Positions 16,147 through 47,974 of a DNA stretch of 64,000 nucleotides are shown one piece after another. Position numbers and translations under genes: made by a program. The stretch is taken from IMG/VR virus record IMGVR_UViG_3300024262_000026, positions 1-64,000 of that record; one strand, written 5' to 3'. The notes below the pieces were generated by a model. That model saw only the letters and a program-made list of their open reading frames with translations. It did not search any database and was not told the origin of the DNA. The DNA is from a virus. How positions within the stretch are numbered: position 1 is the stretch's first letter; the number at the start of each line of letters is the position of its first letter.

Positions 16147-16177
16147 AAAAAAGAGGCTCAATTTTGAGCCTCTTTTT
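16147..16177. terminator. Bidirectional terminator
   Basis: aaaaagaggctca/tgagcctcttttt at a convergent junction. Confidence 0.8.
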
Positions 16178-16580
16178 CTATTTTATCAAGTTTGATTTTT
16201 CTATCCCGTTTTAATAGTTCCTTTGTTGTAAAACCCCAAGCAATACATCCAAACCGAACATCAGTATCAATATCAGATTTACCTTTTACTGCGGTATCAC
16301 CATCTATCGATGTAAGAGTTAAACCATCTTTACAGATATGATATGCCCATAATGGCATCACTATTAAATTTTCATCCCAAGACGAAAACCCAAGTTCGAA
16401 TAATTCATCCTTTGTAAACTTTGTAAAATCAATATCTTGATCTTCACAAAATTTGTCATATGCTTCACGAATTTGTTTAAGCTTAAAATCATCACCCCAA
16501 CCATCATATTCAAAAGCCTGAGCATTTGTCGAAATAATATAATTTTTATAACTGTTTATTTTCTGTACTTCTTCTCTCAC
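16158..16580 (-). CDS. Hypothetical phage protein with C-terminal RxxKLxxI tag
   Basis: Ends DRKIKLDKIEKEAQN. Confidence 0.75.
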   Translation of the reverse strand: MREEVQKINSYKNYIISTNAQAFEYDGWGDDFKLKQIREAYDKFCEDQDIDFTKFTKDELFELGFSSWDENLIVMPLWAYHICKDGLTLTSIDGDTAVKGKSDIDTDVRFGCIAWGFTTKELLKRDRKIKLDKIEKEAQN

Positions 16581-34053: not shown

Positions 34054-34069
34054 TGTAACCTTATATATT

Positions 34070-34096: not shown

Positions 34097-34121
34097 TAAA
34101 TTATAAAAACAATTAAAAATC

Positions 34122-34550
34122 ATGTTAGAACATTTATATGATAAAAATGGGGATTTAAAACCTGAGATAAAAGAAAAAATAGAAATTTTTGCTGAAGAAT
34201 TCAGCGCAAAATTAGATATTGAATATAAAAGAGCACAAAAACTCAAACACTATTTAGATGAAAGAGATTTTGATGATTTTATAGGAAGAATAATTAGAGA
34301 GCATGGTGACAAATATTGTGATAAATGTTATAAAAAAGGTTATGAACCTTATCCTAATAATAAATTTAATTTATTATTAAAGTTAGTTGAAATTGAAGGA
34401 GAAGAAATAACAGACATTGATTTTAAGGATGATTGTGTTTTTCCAAATCAAATTATAAAATATAAAAATTATTATTTTCAATGGATTTGGGGGCAAGGCT
34501 GTATCATACTTATATATGATGAAAATCATGAAAGAATATTTTCAATATAA
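34122..34550 (+). CDS. Hypothetical protein
   Basis: 142 aa; CDKC; stop overlaps next start. Confidence 0.75.
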   Translation: MLEHLYDKNGDLKPEIKEKIEIFAEEFSAKLDIEYKRAQKLKHYLDERDFDDFIGRIIREHGDKYCDKCYKKGYEPYPNNKFNLLLKLVEIEGEEITDIDFKDDCVFPNQIIKYKNYYFQWIWGQGCIILIYDENHERIFSI

Positions 34551-35005
34551 TGGCAAGTTTACATAAACCAATATCACCATTTTTCCCAAATCCAATTTTA
34601 TTATTTGAACCTATCTATAACAATTTAGTTGATATTGACTTTGGTGAGAATGTTTTAAATGAAAATTGTTTTAAAATAAAAGGCAATATTGCACACATTC
34701 ACAACAATTATGATAATATAAGGAAAAAAAGTACATCACAAATAATAGAATCTTTGATTAATACTAATTTGCCAAAAGTTATATTTAATTATCACGATAA
34801 AAATGGTGAAGTATTAGAACAAATAATTGTTTGCAATTTCAAATTTATAAAAATCATAAATAAATTAGATTTTAATTGGAATGAGAATACACTAAAAAAA
34901 TTAAAAGTTCAATTTGAATATGATAAAACTTTTCATTCTGAAAAAGAATACAATTCATATATTCGAAAAGAAAAATTAAACAAAATAAATGGACGAAAAG
35001 ATTAA
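34550..35005 (+). CDS. Degenerate tail-tube paralogue with C-terminal RxxKLxxI tag
   Basis: FEPIYNNL, YHDKNGEVLEQIIVCN and LDFNWNENT align with the 664..1227 tube; ends IRKEKLNKIN. Confidence 0.65.
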   Translation: MASLHKPISPFFPNPILLFEPIYNNLVDIDFGENVLNENCFKIKGNIAHIHNNYDNIRKKSTSQIIESLINTNLPKVIFNYHDKNGEVLEQIIVCNFKFIKIINKLDFNWNENTLKKLKVQFEYDKTFHSEKEYNSYIRKEKLNKINGRKD

Positions 35006-35321
35006 AAAATTAGAAGAACATCTAAATTTTGTTTGGAGTTTAATTCCAAACAAACCAACATATGGAGAATTTAATAAAATATTTCCTGTTAAAAATAATG
35101 TGGAAGTATTAAGAAACTTTGAAAAAGAAAATGAATGGTTTGGTATAGCAAGATATGATACCGAAAATGAAGGCATTTCAATACTTAGTATGTTTGCATC
35201 TATCACAGACTTTTTAAGTGATGGTTGGAGATTAGCATTTGACACCGAAGGTGATAATAAAGATACACCAATAGAAGAACAAATAATTGTGGGATTTAAA
35301 ATGATTAGACTTGATAATTAA
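34989..35321 (+). CDS. Hypothetical protein
   Basis: Start overlaps the upstream tag. Confidence 0.7.
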   Translation: MDEKIKKLEEHLNFVWSLIPNKPTYGEFNKIFPVKNNVEVLRNFEKENEWFGIARYDTENEGISILSMFASITDFLSDGWRLAFDTEGDNKDTPIEEQIIVGFKMIRLDN

Positions 35322-35554
35322 TCATCAACATTTTCAATGTAAGGAAATCTTTCTTTATTTCTCGGATCTATAATATCTTTGCGATATTCAAGAACATCTA
35401 ATTTTATTTCTCTACACTTCTTTGCCACATCCTCTAATTTTCTTCTTAACCTAATAGATGCCGCCTTAATATTCTTACTATAAGTTTTATAATAATCAAC
35501 TCTTGCTGACTCTAATATTTCAATCAGTTCGTCAATTTCATTTAACTCACCCAT
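35318..35554 (-). CDS. Histone H1-like (Hc1-type) small basic protein
   Basis: KNIKAASIRLRRKLEDVAKKCREIK resembles the Bacteroidota Hc1-like GNKAAGTRARK core; start revised to ATG 35554 after a late motif. Confidence 0.6.
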   Translation of the reverse strand: MGELNEIDELIEILESARVDYYKTYSKNIKAASIRLRRKLEDVAKKCREIKLDVLEYRKDIIDPRNKERFPYIENVDD

Positions 35555-35631
35555 AAAACTTATTTTTATTTTTATATATTGATTGAAATAGGACCCATAC
35601 ACCATAATATATAAAAATAAAAATCATTATA

Positions 35632-36096
35632 ATGATGAAAAGAAGTGAATTTTTTGATCTATACAATAAATTGCAAGGTCTTAGATACCATAGTGACAAC
35701 AAAAATTTTTCTTATGCCTTAATAAAAAATATTAAAGCTATTGAACAAGATATTAACAAACTTAATGAAGTTATAAAACCAACTGAAGAATTTCTACAAT
35801 TTGAACAAGAGCGACTTGCTATTTGTCAATCACATTCAATTAAAGATGATAATGGTGACCCACTTTTAAATGGTGATGAATTTCAAATTGAAAATATTGA
35901 AAAATTTAATGAAGATTTAATACCATTAAAGACGAAATATCAAGACATGTTAAATTATAGACAAGAACAAATAGAAAAGTATAATTCTCTTTTAGATCAA
36001 GAAATTGAAATGGAATTAGTTAAAATAGGACCAGATGATTTACCTGATACTATAACACCAAACGAAATAGAAGATATCTATCCTATATTGTTATAA
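35632..36096 (+). CDS. Hypothetical coiled-coil phage protein
   Basis: FSYALIKNIKAIE; late motif upstream. Confidence 0.75.
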   Translation: MMKRSEFFDLYNKLQGLRYHSDNKNFSYALIKNIKAIEQDINKLNEVIKPTEEFLQFEQERLAICQSHSIKDDNGDPLLNGDEFQIENIEKFNEDLIPLKTKYQDMLNYRQEQIEKYNSLLDQEIEMELVKIGPDDLPDTITPNEIEDIYPILL

Positions 36097-36790
36097 TAAA
36101 TGCTTTTTTTCTTACAGATAATATATCACAAAAGGTGATGGAACTTATTTTGTCACCTTTTGTCCATATATTTTGAACCTTATTGTGTCCAACATATTGA
36201 TGAATATTTTCTAATGGCTCCTCTAATTCTCGTTTATCCGCCCAAGTTGGTCCACCTATATAAGAATCACCACCTCTCCAAGATGATACTTGCATTAAAA
36301 TATCTCTCCATTTATCATCATTTCCAATATCATTTAACACTTCAGCTAAATTTGAATTATCTTCTTTTAATCCAAAATATTTTAATACCTCAATATGTTC
36401 ATCATACCACCAAACACTAATACCAGCATGTACAAAAATATGATTATCTCTTTGTAATGCAAATTGGAAAAGAGATTTATTTTTTTGAAAAACTTTTATG
36501 GTTTCTTTTAACCTTTCATTATAGTTTACTGAACTTGTATGGTATTTAGGATACCACATATATTGGGCATCGTGATTACCTATAAGTAATGTAACATTAT
36601 CTGGGTGAGACTTTTTATAATTTATAATCAAATTCAAATTTACAAGTGCATCACTATCATCAATCTTATTATCATAAGGATCACAATAATCACCCAGAAA
36701 AATAAAATGGGTATCTTTATTCTCACCAACAAAATCCATCCAGGAATCTCTACCGTGAATATCACCTATAACACAAAATCTCATAAACAA
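36083..36790 (-). CDS. Calcineurin-like metallophosphoesterase
   Basis: GDIHG, GDYCD, GNHD, HAG, GHN. Confidence 0.9.
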   Translation of the reverse strand: MFMRFCVIGDIHGRDSWMDFVGENKDTHFIFLGDYCDPYDNKIDDSDALVNLNLIINYKKSHPDNVTLLIGNHDAQYMWYPKYHTSSVNYNERLKETIKVFQKNKSLFQFALQRDNHIFVHAGISVWWYDEHIEVLKYFGLKEDNSNLAEVLNDIGNDDKWRDILMQVSSWRGGDSYIGGPTWADKRELEEPLENIHQYVGHNKVQNIWTKGDKISSITFCDILSVRKKAFIITI

Positions 36791-36848
36791 TTCTTTATTT
36801 AATGAATATACTTATAATATATCACAACTGAATAAAAGTTTGATAATT

Positions 36849-37178
36849 ATGGTTAATATAACATTTGACGAATATGTAAATATGATGGAAGACGAATCTA
36901 AATGGCAAATAATAAAAGATTTTGTTAATGAAACAAAGTACTTTCGTTCCAGAGATATTCCACTTGGAAGTACTGGAAAAGTATATGTAAACTATTTACA
37001 CAAAGCTGGATTTTTAGGTAGACCTAAAAAAGGTATTTATTCATTAAACTTACATGTCGAAAATGATATAACATTATATAAAGTAACGGACTACGCTTAT
37101 GGTGACAATAAAGGAGTAATCAATAAAGTTGTTCGTAAAAACAAAATTATAAATTTAAATGAAATTTCAGAAGAATAA
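36849..37178 (+). CDS. Hypothetical protein with C-terminal tag variant
   Basis: Ends VRKNKIINLNE; ATG 36849 preferred over TTG 36840. Confidence 0.7.
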   Translation: MVNITFDEYVNMMEDESKWQIIKDFVNETKYFRSRDIPLGSTGKVYVNYLHKAGFLGRPKKGIYSLNLHVENDITLYKVTDYAYGDNKGVINKVVRKNKIINLNEISEE

Positions 37179-37476
37179 AGACGGTTACATAGAAGTTGAA
37201 TATGAAGGTTCTTATTATTTTCTAGATGGTAAAAAATGGGTAAGAGATTTTAAAATTGATAACTCAACATATTACAGCAATACTGGTCATAACACAACAA
37301 GAAAATTTATTATTCCAGTAGGACAACTATCTAGAAAACAGGCAGAAAAGCAAATAAAACAATTGATGGCACAATATACTGATAAAGAGGTATTTTACGA
37401 TGAAATTCAATCTAAATTGACACGATTATTAAGGAAAGCAAAATTAGATCAATTAAAAAATGTTGAAATTTTATGA
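37159..37476 (+). CDS. Small protein with portal-like segment and RxxKLxxL tag
   Basis: RKFIIPVGQLSRKQAEKQIKQLMAQY; ends LRKAKLDQLK. Confidence 0.65.
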   Translation: MKFQKNKDGYIEVEYEGSYYFLDGKKWVRDFKIDNSTYYSNTGHNTTRKFIIPVGQLSRKQAEKQIKQLMAQYTDKEVFYDEIQSKLTRLLRKAKLDQLKNVEIL

Positions 37477-37844
37477 GCAAATATTGGGTTAAAGTAAACG
37501 TTACTTGTAGGAACGACATCAAACTTTATACAGATGATAAAGAAAAACTTAATGAACTAGAAAAAGATGCTGTTACACAAGCATTTTTACATGAAAGAAC
37601 TTGTAAATTATGTGCAGATATCAAATGGATGAGAGAACAAAGAGAAAAAGAAGATGCACTTTATAGAGTACAATCAGTTGCAAGATGTGGAGAAATATTA
37701 TTTGTTGAACACACAAATCCATCTGAAGTAAGAAAAACACAGATGGAAAGAAATGTATGTCAACAAGTGGCGGAACATAGAAGAAATTGTATAAAATGTA
37801 TAAGAATAGAAAAATTAGATAAAATAAAGAATTTAACAATTTAA
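37473..37844 (+). CDS. Cys-rich hypothetical protein with RxxKLxxI tag
   Basis: HERTCKLC / HRRNCIKC repeat; ends IRIEKLDKIK. Confidence 0.7.
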   Translation: MSKYWVKVNVTCRNDIKLYTDDKEKLNELEKDAVTQAFLHERTCKLCADIKWMREQREKEDALYRVQSVARCGEILFVEHTNPSEVRKTQMERNVCQQVAEHRRNCIKCIRIEKLDKIKNLTI

Positions 37845-37855
37845 TAAAATTAAAA

Positions 37856-38452
37856 ATGGAATTAGAATATACACAAAACGATTTAAAATCAGCATTTGAA
37901 TTTGGTAAAAAGTATCCAAATTTAAAATTAAAAGATTGGTTTAAATATGAGAAAACTCAACTAACAAAAGAAGAACAAAAATTATTTAAATTTATTGATG
38001 TTGCAACAGTACCGATAGGTAAATCCAAATTGTTTTTTATGAATTGGAACGGTGTTGGAGGTGGACATTTTTCTGAACCTTTTAAAATATTCAAGAGAAA
38101 ATATTTTAACAAATATTATCAATTTTTTAATAATTGTTCTGGAGAGTTTAGTGTGATAGTAACAGGAGAAGATTTTTTCAACTTAAAAACCTTTGATAAA
38201 ACTGATTATGAAGGTGTGTATGTAAAAGAAATAATTCATAATGATGTAAAAATTACTATTATGAATTATATTGATTTTGATGGCGATAAAGATGAACATC
38301 AAGCTCATATGTTCTATTCTTGGAGAAACACTTTAGAACGAAATAATTACCATTTTTGGCAAATGGCGAATTGGGACGTTTATATTGATAAACCTTATAA
38401 TTTAAACGTCACACCAGCATTAGAACTTTTAGAAAAAAAAATCATTAAATGA
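37856..38452 (+). CDS. Hypothetical protein
   Basis: 198-aa ORF in array. Confidence 0.75.
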   Translation: MELEYTQNDLKSAFEFGKKYPNLKLKDWFKYEKTQLTKEEQKLFKFIDVATVPIGKSKLFFMNWNGVGGGHFSEPFKIFKRKYFNKYYQFFNNCSGEFSVIVTGEDFFNLKTFDKTDYEGVYVKEIIHNDVKITIMNYIDFDGDKDEHQAHMFYSWRNTLERNNYHFWQMANWDVYIDKPYNLNVTPALELLEKKIIK

Positions 38453-38715
38453 AATATAAAGTAGGTGATAAATTAGTTTGTAGAGAAAATTTTGGTGATT
38501 GTATGGATACCATAATTTGGTATAAAAAACATAATTCATATGAAATAAATGACATCAGAAATAATTGGTTTGAAGAAAATAAAACTGCATATTTTATATC
38601 AATTAATGATAGTTCTGATCTTGAATTTGAATATTCTGAACTACTTAAACATTTTTATATACCAAGTGAACTTAGAAGAAAAAAATTAGATATCATAAAT
38701 GAAATATCCGAATGA
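38449..38715 (+). CDS. Hypothetical protein with RxxKLxxI tag
   Basis: MKYKVGDKL...LRRKKLDIINE. Confidence 0.75.
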   Translation: MKYKVGDKLVCRENFGDCMDTIIWYKKHNSYEINDIRNNWFEENKTAYFISINDSSDLEFEYSELLKHFYIPSELRRKKLDIINEISE

Positions 38716-39742
38716 TTTTATAAATAAAAATATAGTTGGCGACTCAGTAGAATTGATGAAGCAAATTCCTGATAATGTTATTGATTTAACAGTAACATCA
38801 CCACCATACGATAATCTCAGAACATATAAAGGTAAAATAAAAGATAATATTACTTTTGATGATTATTCATTTCCTTTTCAGGAAATGGCACAAGAACTCT
38901 ATCGTATAACAAAGAAAGGTGGTATCGTTGTATGGGTAGTAAACGATCAAGTAAAAAATGGTGGAGAAACTGGCACATCATTTAGAATGGCATTATATTT
39001 TCAACAAATAGGATTCACTATTTATGACACTATGATTTATCACAAAAATGGTCCACCATTTCCAGAATCTGGTAGATATTCACAAGTTTTTGAATATATG
39101 TTTGTATTTTCAAAGGGTAAACCAAATACTGTCAATTTAATTAAAGATAAAGAAAATCGTTGGTCAGGACACCAAAATTTTGGCACACCTTCTGCAAGAA
39201 CAAAAGAAGGCAACTTAAAAAAATCTGAAGCATTTACTGTTGCAGAATATGGCACAAGATATAATGTTTGGTACATCAATGCTGGTAAAGGCTACACAAC
39301 TAAGGACGATTATGCTTACGTTCACCCAGCAATGTTCCCAGAAAGTTTATCGGAGGATCATATTTTATCTTGGACAAATGAAGGTGATATTGTATTAGAT
39401 CCGATGTGTGGAGCAGGCACCACTTGTAAAATGGCAAAACTTAATAATCGTAAATACGTGGGTATGGACATCAATCAAGAGTATGTTGATATATCTGACA
39501 GACGAGTAGAGATCGTGTCTTACAACAAGGATAAACCTAACCCAAAGGTTAAATTTATCGTTTCAAGGGATGAAATCTTAGAAAAACGAAAGAAAACTAG
39601 AGAAGAAAACAAAAGAAAGAAAGAAATGGATTTAACGGAAAAAGATATAGAAATTTTGGAAAAAACAATTGAAAATCCACCAGAACCAAATGAAAAATTA
39701 AAGGAAGCTGCGGAAAAATATAAAGAAGATATAGATGATTAG
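38699..39742 (+). CDS. DNA N4-cytosine/N6-adenine methyltransferase (beta class)
   Basis: TSPPY before HPAMFP and VLDPMCGAGTT. Confidence 0.92.
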   Translation: MKYPNDFINKNIVGDSVELMKQIPDNVIDLTVTSPPYDNLRTYKGKIKDNITFDDYSFPFQEMAQELYRITKKGGIVVWVVNDQVKNGGETGTSFRMALYFQQIGFTIYDTMIYHKNGPPFPESGRYSQVFEYMFVFSKGKPNTVNLIKDKENRWSGHQNFGTPSARTKEGNLKKSEAFTVAEYGTRYNVWYINAGKGYTTKDDYAYVHPAMFPESLSEDHILSWTNEGDIVLDPMCGAGTTCKMAKLNNRKYVGMDINQEYVDISDRRVEIVSYNKDKPNPKVKFIVSRDEILEKRKKTREENKRKKEMDLTEKDIEILEKTIENPPEPNEKLKEAAEKYKEDIDD

Positions 39743-39917
39743 CGAAGAATTACTTAAAATTCACTATAATAGTCGTAATGATGGTTTTGATGAAGAAGAA
39801 GATGATGACTATGAAAAAATTCAAGAAATTTATAAGCAATCCGCATATGAATATGAAAAGTGTGTGAAATTATATATTGATTATATGGAACAAGAAAAAA
39901 TAAAAGTAAACAGATGA
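39735..39917 (+). CDS. Hypothetical protein
   Basis: 60-aa ORF overlapping the MTase stop. Confidence 0.55.
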   Translation: MISEELLKIHYNSRNDGFDEEEDDDYEKIQEIYKQSAYEYEKCVKLYIDYMEQEKIKVNR

Positions 39918-39939
39918 GTAAATTAAAAAGTGAATTATT

Positions 39940-40674
39940 TTAAAGTTTATGATTATTTATTCTATTTTGTGCTAATTCAAAAGTTTCAGACTCTATCTCA
40001 ATACCAATAAATTTTCTATTAGTGTTAAGGCAAGCTATTCCTGTAGTACCTGAACCCATAACATTATCCAACACAACATCGCCTTCATTTGTGTAAGTTT
40101 TTATTAATTCTTCTAACAATTCTATACTTTTCTCTGTTCTATGAAGAGACTTGCTAGGGTGTGGCTTTTGAAAAGAAAAAATAGATGTTGGGTATTTTTC
40201 TGTTGTGCCCGCTCTCGAATCATCAACCATATCAAAATCACCATAATTTTGATTTTTATGTTCTTTATTTAAATATGATGTACCTTTAGAATGTAATGGT
40301 TTGCCACATATAAATTGTGGATTATAAGTTGGCAATTTTGAATAAAAGACAGCTATTTGTTCATGAACCCTCAATGGCATCCTGTTTGCATTTAAAAATC
40401 CACTAATCAATTGTTTATCCCAAATTATATCATATCTAAACATTTTTCTATTTGAATTAACTAAATCAACATAAAATATACCTTGAGAGAATAATAATAT
40501 TGGACCATTATCTTTAATAACTCTTTTATATTGCTTCCATAATGGCTCAAAAGGAATTCTAATATCCTTCTTATTTTGTGTCACACCAAACGGCAAGTCT
40601 GCCAATATTATATCGACACTTTTATCTTCTATTTTATTCATCACATTTAAACAATCACCCTTATATAATATCAT
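39940..40674 (-). CDS. DNA amino-methyltransferase (beta class)
   Basis: DLPFG, HRTEK, VLDNVMGSGTT. Confidence 0.9.
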   Translation of the reverse strand: MILYKGDCLNVMNKIEDKSVDIILADLPFGVTQNKKDIRIPFEPLWKQYKRVIKDNGPILLFSQGIFYVDLVNSNRKMFRYDIIWDKQLISGFLNANRMPLRVHEQIAVFYSKLPTYNPQFICGKPLHSKGTSYLNKEHKNQNYGDFDMVDDSRAGTTEKYPTSIFSFQKPHPSKSLHRTEKSIELLEELIKTYTNEGDVVLDNVMGSGTTGIACLNTNRKFIGIEIESETFELAQNRINNHKL

Positions 40675-40778
40675 ATATTTTATTAATTTTTACTTTATAT
40701 ATTTAAAAAATGATATTGTTTTTGTTACCTTTTTACATTTACATTTTTAATATATAAATAAAAACCACTTTTTATAAA

Positions 40779-41822
40779 ATGAAATGGACAAAAGAAGAAT
40801 GTACAAAAGAGGCACAAAAATATTTATATAAAAAAGATTTTAAAAAATATTCATCAGGCGCATATACATCATCAATTAAAAATAAATGGTTGGATGATAT
40901 AACTAAACATATGATATCTTTACGAAAAAGCAAAGATGAGTGGACATTAGAAGAATGTAGAGATATTGCAAAAAAATACAAAACAAGGACAGAATTTAAT
41001 AAAAAAAGTATATCAGCTTATAGAATATCATTATCTAATGATTGGATAGCTGATGTTTGTTCACATATGAATTGTTATGGTAATAGGTATTTGAGATGTA
41101 TATACTCATATGAATTTAGTGATAACTCAATATATATTGGGTTAACATATAATACGGATAATAGACATAAAAAACATATGTTTAAAGGAACAGTAAAAGA
41201 ACATATGATTAAAATTAACGAGAATCCAAAAATTAAAAAATTAACAGAATATCTACCAATAAATGAAGCAAAAAATGAAGAATATAAATATGTAGAATTT
41301 TATAAAAAAAATGGCTGGAAAATTTTGAACAAAATAAAAACAGGGGGAGTTGGAGGCACATCAATCATATGGAATTATGAAAATTGTAAAAAGGAATCAT
41401 TGAAATATAAAAGTAGAAGTGAATTTGCAAAAAATAACGGTAGCGCATACTATTCATCTATAAAAAACAAATGGCTAGATGATATATGTTCTCATATGAT
41501 ACTAAAAAAGAAACCTAATGGATATTGGAATTATGAAAATTGTAAAAAAGAAGCCTTAAGATATAAAACTAAAAAATTTTTTTATAAAAACTCAAAAGGT
41601 GCTTATAACTCAGCAAAAAGAAACAAATGGCTTAATAATATCTGTGAACATATGATAGGTAATAAAAACATAGGATATTGGAATTATGAAAATTGTAAAA
41701 AAGAAGCTTTAAAATATAAAACTAAAACAGAATTTAAAACTAAATGTGGTAGTGGCTATTTTTATAGCTATAAAAACAAATGGCTTAATGATATCTGTGA
41801 ACATATGACAAAAAGCGATTGA
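40779..41822 (+). CDS. GIY-YIG-like homing endonuclease with five ~50-aa repeats
   Basis: CIYSYEFSDNSIYIGLT..R..H; repeats WxxExCxxEAxKY...AY...KWLxxICxHM. Confidence 0.75.
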   Translation: MKWTKEECTKEAQKYLYKKDFKKYSSGAYTSSIKNKWLDDITKHMISLRKSKDEWTLEECRDIAKKYKTRTEFNKKSISAYRISLSNDWIADVCSHMNCYGNRYLRCIYSYEFSDNSIYIGLTYNTDNRHKKHMFKGTVKEHMIKINENPKIKKLTEYLPINEAKNEEYKYVEFYKKNGWKILNKIKTGGVGGTSIIWNYENCKKESLKYKSRSEFAKNNGSAYYSSIKNKWLDDICSHMILKKKPNGYWNYENCKKEALRYKTKKFFYKNSKGAYNSAKRNKWLNNICEHMIGNKNIGYWNYENCKKEALKYKTKTEFKTKCGSGYFYSYKNKWLNDICEHMTKSD

Positions 41823-41830
41823 TTTAATTA

Positions 41831-42358
41831 ATGGAACTACCTAATAATGAACAAATATATAAAGATATGTTTGATATGATGAATAAGGTTTTCAAAGAAA
41901 ATAACGTTTTTCAAAGAAAACCAACAATACTTTATGATGATTATTATACAAATTTTATAACATTTTTGAAAAATAGCTTTGAATATGATCGTTTTCAAAA
42001 TGAAAAGTTAAATATTGTTGATTATGTTGATAATTTTAAAAATTTAGAACTATTCTTTAAAATTATCAGTAATACGAATGTTTTTTTAGTTGAACAACCA
42101 TCATTTATTTTGCATTATCTTCAAGATGATAACCAACTAACTACAATTACTAAACAAGTATCCGAAACAAACATTTATGGCTTTGTTGATGAATTTAATA
42201 AAAGCAATAAAATATTTATTTTATATATGATTAGGAGTAATGGAATGTTGAGATATGTCACAGTTGATAAAGATCCAAGATACATACAACTTAATGTGAA
42301 AGAAAGATTAAAGAAAGAAAGAAGATTAAAATTAGAACAAATAAATGAAACAATATAA
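41831..42358 (+). CDS. Hypothetical protein with RxxKLxxI tag
   Basis: Ends ERRLKLEQINE. Confidence 0.75.
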   Translation: MELPNNEQIYKDMFDMMNKVFKENNVFQRKPTILYDDYYTNFITFLKNSFEYDRFQNEKLNIVDYVDNFKNLELFFKIISNTNVFLVEQPSFILHYLQDDNQLTTITKQVSETNIYGFVDEFNKSNKIFILYMIRSNGMLRYVTVDKDPRYIQLNVKERLKKERRLKLEQINETI

Positions 42359-42731
42359 ATGGATAATATGGTTTCCTAAAAAATGGGAGAGACATACACA
42401 TTCATCTCCTTCTGTGCTTTATGGATATTTAGATGGTGAAATATTTATATCAAATAAATATCTTTTCAATACTGACATTGAAAGTGAATCTAATGGTTTC
42501 ACACCTATTGATGAAAGATTTAAAGAAAAATATTATTATGAATTTTTTGATTCTAAAGATGATGTCGTTATATTGAGCAAAGAACTTCAAAGGGAAAAAT
42601 ATAAAATAAAACAAGAATTTCAAGATAAAATGGAAAACTTTTATTCTAAAACATCTTTAAAAAAGATGAAAAATAAAATTAGAGAAGCGAAATTAAAACA
42701 AATAAATGAGCAAATTTACGATAGGGGATAG
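42345..42731 (+). CDS. Hypothetical protein with RxxKLxxI tag
   Basis: IREAKLKQINE. Confidence 0.75.
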   Translation: MKQYKWIIWFPKKWERHTHSSPSVLYGYLDGEIFISNKYLFNTDIESESNGFTPIDERFKEKYYYEFFDSKDDVVILSKELQREKYKIKQEFQDKMENFYSKTSLKKMKNKIREAKLKQINEQIYDRG

Positions 42732-42975
42732 AGTTATTTATATTGGTTTCAATGATGATGGTTTAGATGGTCCAAATGCTTGGAAATTAGAAAGATTGCA
42801 AGAATATACTATCACAAATAAAGCATTTGAAACACATAAAGATACAGGTATGTTTTATGGTGTGAGAGATTATAAAGGTGTAGAAACTACTTGGTATAAA
42901 GAAAAGGATTTTATAAGTATTGTTGAAGCTAGAAAATTAAAATTAGATAAGATAAATGATAGATATAACATATAA
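42706..42975 (+). CDS. Hypothetical protein with RxxKLxxI tag
   Basis: MSKFTIGDRV...ARKLKLDKIND. Confidence 0.75.
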   Translation: MSKFTIGDRVIYIGFNDDGLDGPNAWKLERLQEYTITNKAFETHKDTGMFYGVRDYKGVETTWYKEKDFISIVEARKLKLDKINDRYNI

Positions 42976-43789
42976 TAGAACAGAAAACACAACTCGGGTA
43001 GAATTATCAACATTTAACATTTTTAATGAGGAACAATTACCTCTTGTAGTAAAATTTAAAAATTTTATTAACAATAAAATAGTTTGGACTCGAAAATTAG
43101 ATGAAGGTTGTTGGGTTGAATGGTCAGGTGGTGAAGTCATATACAATTTTACAATTGATACTGCTCAAGAACAACGAGTATTAGATTGGAAATATCAAGT
43201 TGAAAATAATGGCACACTTGTAGAAAAAACATTATATTATTTCATTAAAAATACCCCACATAGAACTAAAGGACTTATTGTTGGTTCACATAATGGATTA
43301 TGGGGTCAATGGATATTTCCAGTAATAGAAAATGCTTGTGATGTTGTAATGGTTGATGGTAGTTCACTTCAATTGGAAGAAGCCAAAATAAACTATTCTC
43401 ATCTAAATAATTGTAAATTTATAAATGAAATAGTTACACCTGATGGTAAAGATGTTACTTGGTTTCAAGGTAAAGAAGGGTGTACAGATACCGTGGATAA
43501 GAAAATTATTTCAAAATTTTTAAACGAAGATGAAATCATAAGTAGTTTTAGAACGACTATATCAATAAACAATATTTTTGAACAATACGGAAACTTTGAT
43601 TGGCTCTATTTAGATGCTGAAGGTATAGACTCAGATTTAATATTATCTCTTAATTATCATCCTGGTTTAATAATATATGAACCTGATCATATCTCTGATA
43701 AACAAAATATCAAATTGATGGAATGGTTTAAATTAAATGGGTATAAAGTATTTGAAGAATTAGATTGTATAGCAATAAAAGAAATATGA
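42956..43789 (+). CDS. FkbM-like SAM-dependent methyltransferase (divergent)
   Basis: LIVGSHNG, DWLYLDAEGID..I, IIYE. Confidence 0.65.
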   Translation: MIDITYNRTENTTRVELSTFNIFNEEQLPLVVKFKNFINNKIVWTRKLDEGCWVEWSGGEVIYNFTIDTAQEQRVLDWKYQVENNGTLVEKTLYYFIKNTPHRTKGLIVGSHNGLWGQWIFPVIENACDVVMVDGSSLQLEEAKINYSHLNNCKFINEIVTPDGKDVTWFQGKEGCTDTVDKKIISKFLNEDEIISSFRTTISINNIFEQYGNFDWLYLDAEGIDSDLILSLNYHPGLIIYEPDHISDKQNIKLMEWFKLNGYKVFEELDCIAIKEI

Positions 43790-44046
43790 GATACGAAAAA
43801 GAATATTTAGATAAAATTGGAATGAAAGTATCACACAAAATTGATGAAGATACAATGGCACCAATAGTAACATTTGAACTTAATGGTGTTGAATCTACAA
43901 TAAAAATGACAAGACTTGATATGGAAGATTTTAAAAGTGGTCCACCATATGATGATTTTATTGTTAAAAGAATTAACTCACATATAACAGAATTAATAAA
44001 AATTGTTAGGAAAAAGAAATTGGAAGATATAAATGAAATGGACTGA
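43786..44046 (+). CDS. Small protein with capsid-like segments and RxxKLxxI tag
   Basis: IDEDTMAP, MTRLDMEDFK, VRKKKLEDINE; ATG 43786 overlaps the upstream stop. Confidence 0.7.
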   Translation: MRYEKEYLDKIGMKVSHKIDEDTMAPIVTFELNGVESTIKMTRLDMEDFKSGPPYDDFIVKRINSHITELIKIVRKKKLEDINEMD

Positions 44047-44314
44047 AGAAAGAAGAAAAGCATACGGTATTGATTTAGATACTATGAGTGAAGCGACAAT
44101 GGCACCAAGATTAAGAATAACAATTAATGGATACTCAACCTTAATGTCATTAACTAGAGAATTTATAGAAGATTTAAAATGGCAAACACCGAATTCAGAA
44201 GTGTTTATTGATAGTATGATAGATGATGAAATTGAAAGACACCCTGAATTTAAAAGGATAGTCAGAAAAAAGAAATTGGAACAAATTGAACGATTGGACA
44301 GAACGGATAGATAA
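44033..44314 (+). CDS. Paralogue of upstream gene; capsid-like segments and RxxKLxxI tag
   Basis: MSEATMAP, LTREFIEDLK, VRKKKLEQIE. Confidence 0.7.
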   Translation: MKWTEERRKAYGIDLDTMSEATMAPRLRITINGYSTLMSLTREFIEDLKWQTPNSEVFIDSMIDDEIERHPEFKRIVRKKKLEQIERLDRTDR

Positions 44315-44588
44315 TATGTATTGGTGGGATGAATATAAAAAAGAAACTATTATAATCTCCAAAGAAGATGTTAATGAATCAGTAGGTAAAGGTATGCCTA
44401 CTAAGATCATAAAGAAAAACACAAAACTAAAAATTACAGATAGTTTCAAATTTATGATATTTGTAGAAGATGAAAATAGAAATTTGGGGGTAATTGATAC
44501 TAAAGATATAAATAGATTTTATAATACTAAAGAAAGTGCTAAAATTATTAGAAAAGAAAAATTAGATAAGATAAATGATAAAATATAA
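44286..44588 (+). CDS. Hypothetical protein with RxxKLxxI tag
   Basis: IRKEKLDKIND; true start may be ATG 44316. Confidence 0.7.
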   Translation: MNDWTERIDNMYWWDEYKKETIIISKEDVNESVGKGMPTKIIKKNTKLKITDSFKFMIFVEDENRNLGVIDTKDINRFYNTKESAKIIRKEKLDKINDKI

Positions 44589-45132
44589 TTTTGGAATAGA
44601 ATGTGAAATATCTTGGAATAAATTTCTCTGTGTTAATATGGGTGAAGAAAGACGATATAAACAAGAATTTGAAAATTTTAATGAATTTTTCTATTTTTTA
44701 GAACACAATAAACGAACTATAACAAAATTATTATTTGATGGGTATGAATATATTCTTCAAAATGGACTATTACATAATTTATACGGACCTGCAAAATTAA
44801 GACATAAAGAAAAAGAAGATGGAGATCCATTTTTCGGCACAACCAAATGGTTTTTTATCAATGGTAAATTGGTAACCGATAAATTAGAAAACTATAGGGG
44901 ATGTAAGAATTTAGAAGATTTTGAAAATAATGAAATTTTCTTTTACGAAGAAGTAACAGGTAAAAAATCTGGTAGAGATGAAAAGACTGGACAACTTTAT
45001 AGACGAAAAGAGGGTATTGATTATATAAAACATCCAATAAATTTAGAATCACTTAGACAAAAAGATATAAGAAAAAAGAAATTAGACCAAATAGATGAGC
45101 AAGATAATTATAATCAGCAATACCCAATTTAA
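44575..45132 (+). CDS. Hypothetical protein with RxxKLxxI tag
   Basis: GLLHNLYGPA..KWFFING; IRKKKLDQIDE. Confidence 0.75.
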   Translation: MIKYNFGIECEISWNKFLCVNMGEERRYKQEFENFNEFFYFLEHNKRTITKLLFDGYEYILQNGLLHNLYGPAKLRHKEKEDGDPFFGTTKWFFINGKLVTDKLENYRGCKNLEDFENNEIFFYEEVTGKKSGRDEKTGQLYRRKEGIDYIKHPINLESLRQKDIRKKKLDQIDEQDNYNQQYPI

Positions 45133-46063
45133 CATATCAAAAAACCTTACAACTAAAGAATGGTTGAAGAATATGGATTATTATTTCAACAACGAATTTA
45201 TACCTTATTTAAAGCAAAATAAGAGCGATAACGACATATTAGTACACTTAGGTAATCTACTATCAAATACCAAAAACATCAACTTAGAAGTCTTAAAATT
45301 CATTCAGGAGACATTTGAGAGTATAAGTTCAATACTACCAGTCTATATTTTAAACGGTGAAAATGATACACACACAAAAACCATCTTAAACAACATTAAA
45401 GATATTGAAATAATATCAGAACCTAAAGAAATTGAAATTTTATTAGACCAAAGATTCGCAATGTTACCAAGTAATAGTAAAGTAGAAGATATTGACAAAT
45501 TTGATTCTGATTATTGTTTTTTTCACTTTGATATTAATACACCTCAAAGAGATTCAATACTTAAAAAATTATCAAAATTTCAAAAATGTTATTGTGGTTA
45601 TTATGATAAAAATGGTGTTATGAAAAATATTAAATTTTTAGGTTCACCATACAACTTAGAAAAAGATGAAAAGAAAGGGTTTATTGTTCTAGAAACACAC
45701 ACTAATAAAGATAAATTTATTCTTAATAAAATAAGTCCATCATTTAAAAAAATTACAATAAATGATGATGAAGATTTTGAAATAGATAAATCCATATTTT
45801 TAAATAACTACGTGAGTCTCACATTAAATAAAAAACTTTTTGTTGATAATAAACTAAAAATAGAAATGTTATTATCAGAAAATGATTTTAAAAATGTTTC
45901 TTATACGGATGATGATATTAAAAGAGATAGAGATCTGATACAATTAGATGGCGAATCAGTTTCATTGAAAGAGATGATATCCGAATATATACAGAAATCA
46001 GAAATAGATAATAAAGATAGATTATTACAAGAATTTGAAAAAATAACAAAATTAAATGGATAA
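45095..46063 (+). CDS. Mre11/SbcD/gp47-like nuclease homologue with degenerate metal ligands
   Basis: Fold pattern retained (LVHLG, FLGSPY, KGFIVL, NKISPSF) but ligands read SNTQ, GNL, GEND, GYYD. Confidence 0.75.
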   Translation: MSKIIIISNTQFNISKNLTTKEWLKNMDYYFNNEFIPYLKQNKSDNDILVHLGNLLSNTKNINLEVLKFIQETFESISSILPVYILNGENDTHTKTILNNIKDIEIISEPKEIEILLDQRFAMLPSNSKVEDIDKFDSDYCFFHFDINTPQRDSILKKLSKFQKCYCGYYDKNGVMKNIKFLGSPYNLEKDEKKGFIVLETHTNKDKFILNKISPSFKKITINDDEDFEIDKSIFLNNYVSLTLNKKLFVDNKLKIEMLLSENDFKNVSYTDDDIKRDRDLIQLDGESVSLKEMISEYIQKSEIDNKDRLLQEFEKITKLNG

Positions 46064-46259
46064 TTATTACAAAGAATTATTAAAGAAACATTATGAATCA
46101 ATAAATGAAAAAGATATACAAGAGTATATGGATTTCTGTTTGGATTACGTTAAAGAAAACATCATAAATTGTTATAGTAATGAGAAATCAACAAAAAATG
46201 TTATTGAAGAATTATTTAAAAGAGGTATGGCTAAAAAATGGAAATTAAAACATGATTGA
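46056..46259 (+). CDS. Hypothetical protein
   Basis: 67 aa, overlapping both neighbours. Confidence 0.65.
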   Translation: MDNYYKELLKKHYESINEKDIQEYMDFCLDYVKENIINCYSNEKSTKNVIEELFKRGMAKKWKLKHD

Positions 46260-46518
46260 TTTAAAAGGTAAAGTAAATTTTAGGGATTTTACTACAGAAG
46301 ATTTATTGGAATTGGGAATACAAAGTATTTCTACAATATCTGAGGCTTCTTGGAAACCAAAAGTTATGTTTAAATTTTTGGACGGCAATGAAGAATCATT
46401 TAGTGTAAATAAAGATGAAAATATTGAAGATAAAATAAACAATAAAATAAACGAAATTGTTAGAAAGAAAATAGTAGAACAACGAAAAGAAAAACTAAAC
46501 CAATTAAAATGTTATTAG
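46252..46518 (+). CDS. Small protein with capsid-like segment and RxxKLxxL tag
   Basis: QSISTISEASWKPKVMFK; QRKEKLNQLK. Confidence 0.7.
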   Translation: MIDLKGKVNFRDFTTEDLLELGIQSISTISEASWKPKVMFKFLDGNEESFSVNKDENIEDKINNKINEIVRKKIVEQRKEKLNQLKCY

Positions 46519-46778
46519 ATTTCACAACATTGTCAGATGATCAAATACAATTTTTCCTAAAATTTTTAAAAGCTGACATAATTGAAAAAGGAGAAATTGA
46601 AAGATATATATTATCAGGTAAATGTATCAAAATTAAAATATCGTATTATGATACTATTATAATTGAACCTGAAAAAATTATATTTTATCCTGAGGTTGGT
46701 ACACCTCAAACTATTCTCACAATTGAAAATATTCAAAATTGTGTTAATCTATATAATGAATTGATTAAAAATAATTAG
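46509..46778 (+). CDS. Hypothetical protein
   Basis: Last ORF of the array. Confidence 0.7.
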   Translation: MLLDFTTLSDDQIQFFLKFLKADIIEKGEIERYILSGKCIKIKISYYDTIIIEPEKIIFYPEVGTPQTILTIENIQNCVNLYNELIKNN

Positions 46779-46825: not shown

Positions 46826-47974
46826 CTATTTCTTATTAATTTTAAATCCCATTCCTTTTGTAGAATCATCAACATCAGCCAAATCAATTAATTGTTTTCC
46901 ATTCTTATCATCATAAACTTCTGCTAAAGTTGCCGCAGTTGTAAATTTTTTATTTGCACCAATATACTTAGACAAATCAGTTGCTTGTATAGGTGTTAAT
47001 TTTTTAAATTTATAGTTCACCATCAATCTACCCTTTCTCAAAAGTGCTTCATCAATTATTTTCTTTTCCACATTTAAAGTAGCAATAATTTGCATATCCA
47101 AATAATCATTCAATAAACCATCACTCATATTTAAAATATTTGTAACTGCTTGATCTCTATCCTCAGTAGTATTTGTTAAGATTGTTTCGGCATCTTCTAA
47201 AAGTAAAACAGTATTTTTAAATTTAGAAACAAAAGAAATCAACTCAGGTTCTGCAATACCATACATCATATAACTTGGTACATATATAATAGTCTTTTCC
47301 TCTGATAAATCGTGTATAATTTTACGGATATATGTTGTCTTACCAGTACCTGGTGATCCATGAAATAGAAACAAACCTTTTTTATTTTCTGATAATTTTT
47401 TAATAATTTCTTTATCTTTATCAATAAATTCCTCACCATAATTCATCTTCAAATTAATATCAAGATCCTTAACGGTAGCATTACGAAGTTCATATCCATA
47501 ATTACCTCTTGAAATAAGGAAAAATGATTTGTTTTTTGGTGGATGGTATGTCATTTCTTCAAGTTTTGGTAAAATATCATTATTGACAAAATCAGTCGAA
47601 TCTGACTGGAAATAAATTAACATTTCAAATATTTTATCCTCTTGTTCTTCAGGGGTTTCATATAACTCCGAATCAATAACCTTTTTTTCATCATAAAAAA
47701 TAAACATCACTTTATATGGTTTATTTAGAGTTACAACATACTTATAACTTCGCTCTTCCCTACCTTTTATATCCTTTTGTATATCACAATGAACCATCAT
47801 ATTCTCAGGTTTAACATTATATTCAGTTTTTAAAAAATTCCAAAACTTATCCGATATTATCTGTTGTGATATAGAAAACCTATTTGTAAACTTACCAAAT
47901 TCTACATAGGCATATACATCCTCTTGTCTTTCAAATATATCATTTGAAAGTGTCAAATTTATTGTTTTATCCAT
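46826..47974 (-). CDS. AAA+ ATPase
   Basis: HGSPGTGKT, LLLEDAE, LNMSDG, ALLRKGR. Confidence 0.9.
   Translation of the reverse strand: MDKTINLTLSNDIFERQEDVYAYVEFGKFTNRFSISQQIISDKFWNFLKTEYNVKPENMMVHCDIQKDIKGREERSYKYVVTLNKPYKVMFIFYDEKKVIDSELYETPEEQEDKIFEMLIYFQSDSTDFVNNDILPKLEEMTYHPPKNKSFFLISRGNYGYELRNATVKDLDINLKMNYGEEFIDKDKEIIKKLSENKKGLFLFHGSPGTGKTTYIRKIIHDLSEEKTIIYVPSYMMYGIAEPELISFVSKFKNTVLLLEDAETILTNTTEDRDQAVTNILNMSDGLLNDYLDMQIIATLNVEKKIIDEALLRKGRLMVNYKFKKLTPIQATDLSKYIGANKKFTTAATLAEVYDDKNGKQLIDLADVDDSTKGMGFKINKK

What the first reader, a model, noticed from the sequence alone, without database searches (positions are those of the whole stretch)
34550..46518. Array of ~13 mostly unrelated small proteins sharing a C-terminal R-x-x-K-L-x-x-[IL] tag: candidate modular adaptor or decoy system
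Seen: ORFs with largely unrelated bodies end in IRKEKLNKIN (34964), VRKNKIINLN (37134), LRKAKLDQLK (37432), IRIEKLDKIK (37803), LRRKKLDIIN (38674), ERRLKLEQIN (42320), IREAKLKQIN (42681), ARKLKLDKIN (42931), VRKKKLEDIN (44008), VRKKKLEQIE (44264), IRKEKLDKIN (44550), IRKKKLDQID (45070) and QRKEKLNQLK (46483); positions are the first base of the Arg codon. A further copy sits outside the array (16158..16580, DRKIKLDKIE). Arg uses CGA, CGT, AGG and AGA and Leu uses TTA, TTG and CTA, which points to selection on the peptide. Inference: a constant amphipathic docking helix on a variable cargo, like an F-box/SOCS-box adaptor library, could recruit many targets to one hub. Candidate hubs are the AAA+ ATPase convergent with the array, the MoxR/VWA pair, DnaJ or a host protease. 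I know of no description of this system.
Basis: partly seen in the sequence, partly recalled or inferred. Interest (0 to 1): 0.92.

Follow-up and report, generated by a model that had tools for sequence, protein, structure and literature searches.

The report
Shared tail tag joins phage genes
Dozens of unrelated small proteins of an uncultured giant phage end in the same ten-residue helix, and the DNA that encodes this helix also holds the next gene's start and is the seam at which whole genes are swapped between related phages; what the helix binds is still unknown.

Summary
All 13 array copies and the outlier sit where stated. 14 of 93 genes carry the motif in their last 25 residues, against 0.3-0.7 in shuffles.

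The contig is about 10% of a ~700-kb Mahaphage-like phage with SD-less, A-rich start regions. The tag recurs in other AT-rich huge-phage contigs. It gave no matches in pattern scans of five published relatives.

In pooled loci I found 100 unique tagged junctions. Bodies fall into at least six families unrelated by profile comparison, plus singletons.

Leave-one-out counts and codon diversity show selection on the peptide: Arg 38 of 38, Leu by four codons.

The coding DNA is also a cassette joint. The next gene's ATG lies 25 nt after the Arg codon in 9 of 13 window copies. Close relatives differ by whole-gene insertions, deletions and swaps that break at the tag, including one hybrid tag.

No receptor was found. 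MoxR is not tag-specific and the AAA+ link is weak. The docking reading is plausible but unproven. Other scan notes describe different shared tails in other phages.

The parts
34550..35005 (+). tagged ORF 1 (151 aa). Tag codons 34964-34990, RKEKLNKIN. Next gene's ATG at 34989 (+25).
36840..37178 (+). tagged ORF 2 (112 aa). Tag 37134-37160, RKNKIINLN. Next ATG at 37159 (+25).
37159..37476 (+). tagged ORF 3 (105 aa). Tag 37432-37458, RKAKLDQLK. Next ATG at 37473 (+41, ATGA overlap with the stop).
37473..37844 (+). tagged ORF 4 (123 aa). Tag 37803-37829, RIEKLDKIK. Next ATG at 37856 (+53).
38449..38715 (+). tagged ORF 5 (88 aa, SH3-like family I). Tag 38674-38700, RRKKLDIIN. The ATG of the DNA methylase gene is at 38699 (+25). 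The same junction follows an unrelated body in L043.
41831..42358 (+). tagged ORF 6 (175 aa). Tag 42320-42346, RRLKLEQIN. Next ATG at 42345 (+25).
42345..42731 (+). tagged ORF 7 (128 aa). Tag 42681-42707, REAKLKQIN. Next ATG at 42706 (+25). This cassette is absent from L040, L042 and L043.
42706..42975 (+). tagged ORF 8 (89 aa, SH3-like family I). Tag 42931-42957, RKLKLDKIN. Next ATG at 42956 (+25). In relatives three other genes start at this same ATG.
43765..44046 (+). tagged ORF 9 (93 aa from TTG; start uncertain). Tag 44008-44034, RKKKLEDIN. Next ATG at 44033 (+25). Paralogue of ORF 10.
44033..44314 (+). tagged ORF 10 (93 aa). Tag 44264-44290, RKKKLEQIE. No ATG at +25. The next gene probably starts at 44316.
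44316..44588 (+). tagged ORF 11 (90 aa from ATG 44316; listed from TTG 44286). Tag 44550-44576, RKEKLDKIN. Next ATG at 44575 (+25).
44575..45132 (+). tagged ORF 12 (185 aa). Tag 45070-45096, RKKKLDQID. Next ATG at 45095 (+25).
46252..46518 (+). tagged ORF 13 (88 aa). Tag 46483-46509, RKEKLNQLK. Next ATG at 46509 (+26).
16158..16580 (-). Outlying tagged ORF. Tag from 16202 down to 16176, RKIKLDKIE, with Leu as CTT. No same-strand gene follows it, since it is convergent with 14786-16114.
46031..46057 (+). Half-tag at the end of the 322-aa gene 45095-46063 (EFEKITKLN, no Arg-Lys). The next gene's ATG is embedded at 46056 in the same phase. Conserved in L040.
40750..40757 (+). ATATATAA promoter-like motif ahead of the 40779-46778 run of co-directional, mostly overlapping genes. 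The same motif precedes the tail sheath and baseplate genes.
   Evidence: motif position only; function inferred
46826..47974 (-). Classic-clade AAA+ ATPase convergent with the array. Context only: a candidate reader of the tag, not shown to be one.

Best explanation
The tag is a portable 'cassette end' with two layers.

Protein layer. A roughly 10-residue helix-forming peptide, hydrophobic-R-K-x-K-L-[D/E/K]-x-[I/L]-N, closes most small proteins (56-185 aa) encoded in head-to-tail arrays. These arrays occur in a lineage of AT-rich, roughly 700-kb Mahaphage-like phages, whose hosts are probably Bacteroidota. The peptide is kept by selection on the amino acids, and it sits on bodies of several unrelated families. 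It most likely acts as a one-faced docking helix for a common partner. That last step is inferred and the partner is unknown.

DNA layer. The same 26-35 nt form an imperfect direct repeat at each gene boundary. In this phage the Lys-Leu codons (AAA TTA) lie on the genome's SD-less A-rich start motif, and the next gene's ATG is embedded in the Asn codon. So the end of one cassette is the start region of the next. Recombination between such joints inserts, deletes, duplicates and reorders whole cassettes in frame.

What is shown: the tag exists, it is under peptide-level selection, the start codon is embedded, and cassette breakpoints fall at the tag. What is inferred: the translation-start function, recombination as the mechanism, and docking.
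For: Enrichment at C-termini. 14 of 93 genes carry the motif, against shuffle means of 0.29 and 0.71. In 257 kb pooled from 20 sources, hits inside long ORFs pile up 10-14 residues before the stop (85). The other bins hold 13 (15-19), 13 (20-24) and 16 elsewhere.

Selection on the peptide. The motif was detected with one position left free at a time. Arg was 38 of 38 (AGA 34, CGA 3, AGG 1). Lys4 was 38 of 38. Position 5 was Leu 38 plus Ile 4 of 42, with Leu codons TTA 18, CTT 16, CTA 2 and TTG 2. In orthologues of 42706, Ile8 is ATA, ATC or ATT and Arg1 is AGA or AGG. All 7 database orthologues (61-89% identity) keep R-K-x-K-L-x-x-[IL], while position 9 and the tail vary. The outlier copy has no downstream gene. 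The Ile/Leu codon puts T at -3 in 10 of 13 junctions, although A is preferred there in other genes (49 of 80).

Unrelated bodies. 73 bodies fall into 53 BLAST clusters. Six families compared profile to profile gave probability of 0.7% or less in 15 of 15 pairs. Viral SH3-like clusters of 70-75 aa align only to residues 1-73 of 38449, that is, without the tag helix. An AF2 model has a helix at 72-87, where block-mean pLDDT is about 82-84.

Start region. A 4-nt SD core occurs in 2 of 93 genes. AAAAWTA occurs upstream of 38 of 80 untagged-junction genes, against 7.6% of coding windows. It peaks at -17 (11 cases), and sits at -17 in 5 of 13 tag junctions. The ATG is at +25 in 9 of 13 window copies. 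In pooled data it is at +25 in 24 of 88 junctions that have a downstream ORF; the next most common positions are +28 (12), +31 (10) and +35 (9).

Cassette seam. The junctions form direct-repeat families of 26-58 nt at 71-88% identity. After the 42706-type gene, four different genes follow in four phages. Three of them start at the identical embedded ATG. L040 carries a hybrid tag that joins this gene to the 45095-type gene, with five cassettes missing. The methylase junction is kept behind an unrelated body in L043. G002 has 14 consecutive tagged genes in 3.5 kb and 9 in 3 kb.
Against: No partner was found, so the function of the peptide is not shown.

The extra codon preference expected if the tag also serves as a start signal is only a trend. 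TTA is used in 14 of 21 tags with ATG at +25 against 17 of 40 others (p=0.11). ATA is used in 11 of 21 against 12 of 40 (p=0.10).

The -17 motif was established only in this genome. Pooled junctions with other ATG positions show no -17 peak.

In pooled data only about a quarter of junctions are phase-locked. Part of that follows simply from an AAT codon followed by a codon that begins with G.

Breakpoints at gene boundaries are expected anyway, because only intact genes survive. The direct sign of crossover inside a tag is a single hybrid junction.

The comparison rests on four short metagenome loci.

BLAST clusters overstate the number of independent families. For example, the 'AY-LY ... YY-KA' proteins are singletons by BLAST but clearly one family.
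Confidence: 0.68

Rival explanations
1. The shared peptide is only a by-product of a nucleic-acid signal that the upstream ORF happens to read through. The signal could be a translation start region, a translational operator or a promoter. The peptide itself would have no function.
For: The tag core coincides with the genome-wide AAAAWTA motif at -17, and the ATG is embedded at +25 in 9 of 13 copies. Same-phase junctions give tag-like peptides without Arg-Lys: EFEKITKLNG at 46056, and IKEKLIQHL at the end of 55400-56281. A clear case of such a by-product exists nearby: gene ends KFN[LI]-stop beside promoter-like motifs.
Against: Leu is encoded by TTA, CTT, CTA and TTG, and Arg by AGA, CGA and AGG, with no non-synonymous variants in the leave-one-out sets. 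The tag is kept where the next ATG lies 28-59 nt away, and where no gene follows at all. Orthologues keep the peptide while losing the embedded ATG. The peptide forces a disfavoured T at -3. Another same-phase junction, 39735 (AEKYKEDIDD), carries the A-rich motif but not the peptide.
Confidence: 0.08
2. All tagged proteins are diverged paralogues of one ancestral small protein. The tag would simply be the slowest-evolving part of that family, not a module moved between bodies.
For: The genes lie in tandem arrays with obvious local duplications: 9 SH3-like copies in 3 kb, three RKYKL copies in L012, and 43765/44033 in the window. BLAST misses real families (alignment of family II). All 23 complete family-I members carry the tag.
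Against: Six families show no profile-profile similarity once the tag is removed (15 of 15 pairs at 0.7% or less). One family looks beta-rich and SH3-like, while family II has different conserved motifs. Sizes range from 56 to 185 aa. An unrelated body sits on the same methylase junction in L043. Similar SH3-like viral proteins lack the helix.
Confidence: 0.1
3. One reading: an adaptor or decoy library whose constant helix docks on a hub encoded in this window, namely the AAA+ ATPase, the MoxR/VWA pair or DnaJ.
For: The AAA+ gene is convergent with the array in G000 and in the close relative L040 (90% identity). Its N-terminal 170 residues are matched in tag-bearing G002 (55% identity over residues 9-380) but not in the scan-negative LR756501 and LR756504, where only the ATPase part matches. 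A full DnaJ is present.
Against: MoxR has full-length orthologues in four scan-negative phages, and no VWA domain was detected next to it. In G002 the AAA+ gene lies more than 70 kb from the nearest tag site found there, with no tagged neighbours. N-domains diverge quickly in any case. The window is only about 10% of the genome, so the partner is more likely encoded elsewhere or in the host.
Confidence: 0.08
4. The tag is a virion-loading signal. The tagged small proteins would be packed into the huge capsid and injected with the DNA. This would be a C-terminal counterpart of the T4 internal-protein targeting sequence.
For: [quoted passage not shown] The run 40779-46778 follows the same ATATATAA motif as the tail sheath and baseplate genes, while the upstream regions of the recombinase, helicase and reductase genes listed lack it.
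Against: There are no virion data. The meaning of the motif is inferred. The T4 signal is N-terminal and is cleaved off. There may be a very large number of tagged genes per genome.
Confidence: 0.1

Closest known systems
Capsid targeting sequence of the T4 internal proteins (IP locus)
   Same: A short terminal peptide is the only thing shared by otherwise diverse small phage proteins encoded in a variable locus (PMC3012670, passages read).
   Different: The T4 signal is N-terminal. From recall, it is removed by the prohead protease. Here the tag is C-terminal, no processing or packaging is known, and its DNA overlaps the next gene's start.
PeSL mobile regulatory cassettes of T4-type phages (Arbiol et al. 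2010, PMC2839356; abstract read)
   Same: Short repeated units at gene boundaries in hyperplastic regions. Recombination between them shuffles, deletes and inserts non-essential genes between close relatives.
   Different: PeSLs are non-coding promoter-plus-terminator units between genes. Here the repeat is translated, is conserved at the amino-acid level, and contains the next start codon instead of a promoter and stem-loop.
SD-less, A-rich translation start regions of Bacteroidota (Baez et al. 2019, PMC6847099; abstract and section 15 read)
   Same: No Shine-Dalgarno sequence. An adenine-rich tract upstream of the start acts as a positive determinant. The phage's relatives are predicted to infect Bacteroidetes (PMC7162821, passages read).
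   Different: In F. johnsoniae the tract is at -14 to -11. Here A peaks at about -19 to -14 with a T-T-A step, and the region is inside the preceding ORF. No expression data exist for this phage.
Recombination junctions of polymorphic toxin cassettes (Zhang et al. 2012, PMC3482391; only the search listing's abstract seen; details recalled)
   Same: A conserved coding motif marks the seam at which variable protein-coding cassettes are exchanged by recombination.
   Different: There the constant part is a large N-terminal delivery region and the variable part is a C-terminal toxin with an immunity gene. Here each cassette is a whole small gene, and no toxin or immunity pair is evident.
Shared C-terminal docking or loading peptides in general, such as clamp-binding tails, protease and unfoldase tags and encapsulin cargo peptides (all recalled, not tested)
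   Same: A short terminal peptide on unrelated proteins, read by one receptor.
   Different: No receptor is known here, and the sequence resembles none of these motifs as far as I recall. Other notes of this scan describe different shared tails in other phages whose docking reading later received low odds.

Membership tests
Any Pfam or PHROG protein family | Score above the family's cut-off | tested here: not met
   Pfam: 0 of 14 window tagged proteins and 0 of 10 tagged proteins from other loci reach a curated cut-off. PHROGs was run on 10 of the 14 and gave two weak hits, E 0.0046 and 0.0074.
T4-type capsid targeting sequence | N-terminal position on the packaged protein | tested here: not met
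   The tag lies 9-25 residues before the stop, not at the N-terminus.
T4-type capsid targeting sequence | Directs the protein into the prohead and is cleaved off | not testable with these tools
   No virion proteome or culture exists.
PeSL-type mobile regulatory cassette | Non-coding unit made of a promoter and a terminator stem-loop | tested here: not met
   The repeat lies inside ORFs and is translated. Stem-loop formation was not tested.
PeSL-type mobile regulatory cassette | Gene insertions, deletions and replacements between relatives break at the repeats | tested here: met
   Comparison of G000 with L040-L043, including one hybrid tag. The sample is small.
Bacteroidota-type SD-less start region | No SD core; A-rich tract upstream of the start | tested here: met
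   An SD core in 2 of 93 genes. A is the majority base at -19 to -14, and AAAAWTA peaks at -17.
   The conserved stretch is about 10 residues, with no domain match. The hub is unknown.
MoxR-VWA client system | A MoxR ATPase paired with a VWA protein, and specific to tag-bearing phages | tested here: not met
   MoxR-type hits are below cut-off and no VWA was detected in 12711-14699. Orthologues of the ATPase occur in four scan-negative phages.

The most novel reading that the evidence does not exclude
A natural plug-and-play payload system. The tag would be an address label read by one receptor, for example the capsid interior for co-injection or an unfoldase. Its coding DNA would have evolved into an in-frame recombination joint that also restarts translation. 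Co-infecting huge phages could then trade, duplicate and reorder whole small-protein 'payload' cassettes, each arriving already addressed and already expressed.
Probability: 0.27. Interest if true: 0.85.

Novelty: new variant of a known kind. Interest (0 to 1): 0.62.

Why it matters
Huge phages carry hundreds of small ORFan genes whose origin, turnover and handling are unknown. This lineage shows a concrete architecture for them. One short coding repeat gives every product the same C-terminal helix. It also supplies the next gene's start in an SD-less system, and it marks the seam at which whole genes are exchanged between relatives.

If the helix is an address label, finding its receptor would assign a common fate to over a hundred unknown proteins at once. 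That fate could be packaging, unfolding, degradation or localisation.

The case is also a caution for the scan's many 'shared tail' findings. Part of such a tail can be dictated by the neighbouring gene's signals. Both layers must be separated before a docking model is accepted.

Tried and rejected
Complex prediction of the AAA+ N-domain (residues 1-200) with the aligned tag tails: no support (score 0.01 against a mark of 0.32). This is no evidence either way.

AF2 of the whole AAA+ from 3 sequences gave mean pLDDT 48. The wide fold search gave a best Z of 6.5, within the noise range stated by the tool. The N-domain fold is therefore undetermined.

A word-based protein search with the tag region found only the query itself.

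The Atlas search with the tag part alone gave no usable hit. The structural rows were short helices in unrelated proteins.

The tag pattern scanned over genome contigs gave 7 hits, and none is a C-terminal tag in a long ORF. Most lie in stop-filled, apparently non-coding frames, three of them just upstream of an ORF beginning MCGIVAAAS. This gave no host clue.

The megablast of the array against phage records found no match.

The search for related loci in viral contigs for 42706 found no relative.

Sequencing runs: no RNA holder listed.

Net charge of the bodies shows no common trend: 28 acidic, 26 neutral, 20 basic.

I looked by eye at position 8 (Ile or Leu) within and between genomes and saw no genome-wide switch. 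This was not counted.

Frameshift or polyprotein reading of the junctions was considered and dropped. Downstream genes start with conserved Met-initiated N-termini in several loci.

Literature searches found no description of this tag or of a translated cassette joint in phages. Only open-access papers and bioRxiv were searched. Supplementary files were not seen, and the supplements of the huge-phage paper could bear on this.

Full report
WHAT IS THERE. They also confirm the outlier on the minus strand at 16158-16580. The window is 64 kb of a single 73,024-bp IMG/VR record, rated 10% complete. Its UvsX-like recombinase is closest to the 634-735-kb 'uncultured phage' genomes LR756501-4 and LR745206 (48-62% identity). 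It is more distant from Lak phages (33%). Passages of the huge-phage paper say that the genomes over 634 kb cluster in the Mahaphage clade and are predicted to replicate in Bacteroidetes (PMC7162821). The window also holds tail sheath, tube and baseplate genes, DnaB, RtcB, an intein-bearing ribonucleotide reductase, two DNA methylases and a full DnaJ.

IS IT MORE THAN CHANCE? Yes. The motif R..K[LIV]..[ILV] lies in the last 25 residues of 14 of 93 genes. Composition-preserving shuffles give 0.29 (whole protein) or 0.71 (last 25 residues only). The maximum was 5 in 2000 shuffles. Only 2 hits fall in the remaining 20,565 residues. In the plus-strand run 34122-46778, 13 of 24 genes are tagged. 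All tagged products are 88-185 aa, and the large enzymes are untagged. With tags removed, only one pair of bodies is similar by BLAST (43765/44033, E 1.6e-4). No tagged protein reaches a Pfam cut-off. PHROGs, run on 10 of the 14, gave two weak hits.

HOW WIDE IS IT? Two tag-derived DNA patterns found 8 and 13 stretches in IMG/VR. All are 22-27% G+C, and several come from contigs of 110-330 kb rated 16-46% complete. In five such records a stricter pattern matched 2-6 times each, against 0 for the reversed control. The same kind of pattern found nothing in LR756501, LR756502, LR756504 and LR745206, and nothing above control in Lak-A1. The tag therefore appears to mark a sub-lineage rather than all Mahaphages.

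In 257 kb pooled from 20 sources, hits within long ORFs lie 10-14 residues before the stop in 85 cases. A further 13 lie at 15-19, 13 at 20-24, and 16 elsewhere (counts not de-duplicated). After adding five more stretches of two large contigs I had 100 unique tagged junctions. One stretch of G002 has 14 consecutive tagged genes in 3.5 kb, and another has 9 in 3 kb.

PEPTIDE OR DNA? I detected tags with one position left free at a time. The free position was Arg in 38 of 38 cases (AGA 34, CGA 3, AGG 1). It was Lys in 38 of 38 at position 4. At position 5 it was Leu 38 plus Ile 4 of 42, with Leu spelled TTA 18, CTT 16, CTA 2 and TTG 2. Only 1-2 internal matches turned up per pattern. One search pattern demanded CTT and so inflates that codon. 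Among tags not targeted by a pattern, CTT is still 15 of 61.

Five orthologues of 42706 spell Ile8 as ATA, ATC or ATT, and Arg1 as AGA or AGG. Seven database orthologues (61-89% identical) all keep R-K-x-K-L-x-x-[IL], while position 9 and the tail change. The outlier has the tag with no gene behind it. This is selection on the amino acids.

In a helix the conserved R1, K4, L5 and I8 share one face (my inference). An AF2 model of 42706 from 12 family members (mean pLDDT 66) puts a helix at 72-87, where block-mean pLDDT is about 82-84.

ARE THE BODIES REALLY UNRELATED? 73 bodies fall into 53 BLAST clusters. This overstates independence, since some singletons plainly form one family. I therefore defined six families by eye and by HMM and compared them profile to profile without the tag. 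All 15 pairs gave probability of 0.7% or less.

The largest family is SH3-like. The Atlas lists viral clusters of 70-75 aa that align to residues 1-73 only, which means without the tag helix. It also lists SH3 domains of helicases and NifZ. Within the pooled loci, 23 of 24 hits of the tag-less family-I profile carry the tag. The 24th is cut off by the end of its locus. The tag thus behaves as an add-on shared by several folds, spread further by tandem duplication.

THE DNA LAYER. Only 2 of 93 genes have a Shine-Dalgarno core at -20 to -5. Instead, 38 of 80 genes without a tag upstream have AAAAWTA within 40 nt of the start. The background is 7.6% of coding windows. The motif peaks at -17, with 11 cases. 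This resembles the SD-less, adenine-dependent initiation described for Flavobacterium johnsoniae, although the tract there is at -14 to -11 (PMC6847099, section 15).

In 9 of 13 array copies the next gene's ATG lies 25 nt after the Arg codon, inside AAT-G. That places the Lys4 codon at -16 to -14 and Lys-Leu (AAA TTA) on the motif at -17 in 5 of 13. Conserved N-termini of the downstream genes in other loci begin exactly at that ATG.

There are limits to this. In pooled data +25 is the mode but only 24 of 88, with +28 at 12, +31 at 10 and +35 at 9. The expected extra preference for TTA and ATA in phase-locked tags is only a trend, at p=0.11 and p=0.10. The tag forces T at -3 where A is usual. 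Same-phase junctions without Arg-Lys also exist, at 39735 and 46056. The start region therefore explains part of the spelling but not the peptide.

CASSETTE SEAM. The junctions show up as direct-repeat families of 26-58 nt at 71-88% identity. Four metagenome loci that encode orthologues of 42706 are close relatives, with proteins 53-90% identical. Their gene orders are:
- G000: 41831*, 42345*, 42706*, 42956, 43765*, 44033*, 44316*, 44575*, 45095, 46056, 46252*, 46509, AAA+.
- L042: 41831-like, 42706*, 44316*, 44033*, 44575*, 45095.
- L040: 41831-like, 42706*, 45095, 46252*, 46509, AAA+.
- L043: 37473*, a new tagged gene, methylase, methylase, 41831*, 42706*, and a second SH3-like gene*.

At the nucleotide level the 42706 orthologues stay alike through the tag up to the embedded ATG. 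After it, three different genes begin. In L040 the junction is a hybrid of this tag and the one that precedes 45095 (RKEKLEKIRKINEQNIYNK). The methylase keeps its junction in L043 behind a body with no match in G000.

This is the pattern described for PeSL-mediated modular shuffling in T4-type phages (PMC2839356, abstract), except that here the repeat is translated. One caution applies: selection alone favours breakpoints at gene ends, and the sample is four short loci.

WHO READS THE TAG? This is unknown. The MoxR-like ATPase has orthologues in four scan-negative huge phages, and no VWA domain was found beside it. The classic-clade AAA+ ATPase keeps its place next to the array in L040. Its N-terminal part is matched in tag-bearing G002 but not in two scan-negative genomes. 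However, in G002 it lies far from the tag sites found there, among genes with a different ending. These facts are too weak to name a hub.

The run 40779-46778 follows the same ATATATAA motif as the tail sheath and baseplate genes. The upstream regions of the recombinase, helicase and reductase genes listed lack it. This would fit co-expression with virion parts, and a loading signal like that of the T4 internal proteins (PMC3012670). The motif's meaning is inferred.

VERDICT. The best-supported account is a two-layer cassette end: a selected C-terminal helix of unknown partner, whose coding DNA doubles as the next gene's start region and as a recombination seam. I found no description of it in the searches listed. 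Other notes of this scan report different shared tails in other phages, and the same phase-lock on this stretch. I rate it a new variant of known kinds (shared terminal tags, and repeat-mediated modular shuffling), of moderately high interest.

Noticed in passing
L027 (G002:47671-51777), genes at 2732-3010, 3021-3329 and 3326-3928; also window 567-710 (-) and 34061-34246 (-): Three consecutive genes beside the G002 AAA+ orthologue end in KFNL or KFNI followed by the stop. In the window, two short ORFs end in KFNI where the ATATATAA promoter-like motif lies. This looks like a shared 'tail' produced by reading through a DNA signal, a useful contrast to the RKxKL tag.
   Followed up: partly
window 6110, 26172, 28327, 35607, 40750, 49743, 51355, 55153 (+ or - strand as listed): The motif ATATATAA, often after a T-run, lies 15-40 nt upstream of many genes. 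These include the tail sheath and baseplate genes, both methylases and the tagged operon. The upstream regions of the UvsX, DnaB and reductase genes listed lack it. It is a candidate phage promoter class.
   Followed up: partly
window 37159-37476: This tagged 105-aa protein has sub-threshold similarity to T4-type portal proteins over about 32 residues (Pfam Portal_T4 E 0.0029, PHROG portal E 0.0046). The hit is too weak to call.
   Followed up: partly
window 40779-41822: A 347-aa protein built of 3-4 internal repeats of about 50 residues (DNA direct repeats D1 and D2), each ending in NKWL[DN][DN]IC.HM. It has no Pfam match.
   Followed up: no
window 19078-22290 (-): The ribonucleotide reductase large subunit is interrupted by an intein (Pfam Intein_splicing at residues 308-493).
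   Followed up: no
window 16587-19061 (-): An 824-aa protein with two heptosyltransferase (GT9) stretches and a C-terminal DUF6165.
   Followed up: no
window 57692-58690: A complete DnaJ (J domain, Cys-rich region and C-terminal domain) encoded by the phage.
   Followed up: no
window 55400-56281: An HNH or homing-endonuclease-like gene whose product ends in IKEKLIQHL. This is a near-tag without Arg, overlapping the next start by ATGA.
   Followed up: no
L036 (G001:217000-220000), minus strand: A 247-aa ORF carries a perfect tag (RKLKLDNIN with an embedded ATG) 94 residues before its stop. It looks as if two cassettes had fused in frame.
   Followed up: no
L002/L005/L012 and L006: MoxR-like ATPase genes lie within 1-8 kb of tag arrays in several contigs. 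In L002/L005 there are two paralogues with a long acidic N-terminal extension. The family is also present in scan-negative relatives, so the proximity may mean nothing.
   Followed up: partly
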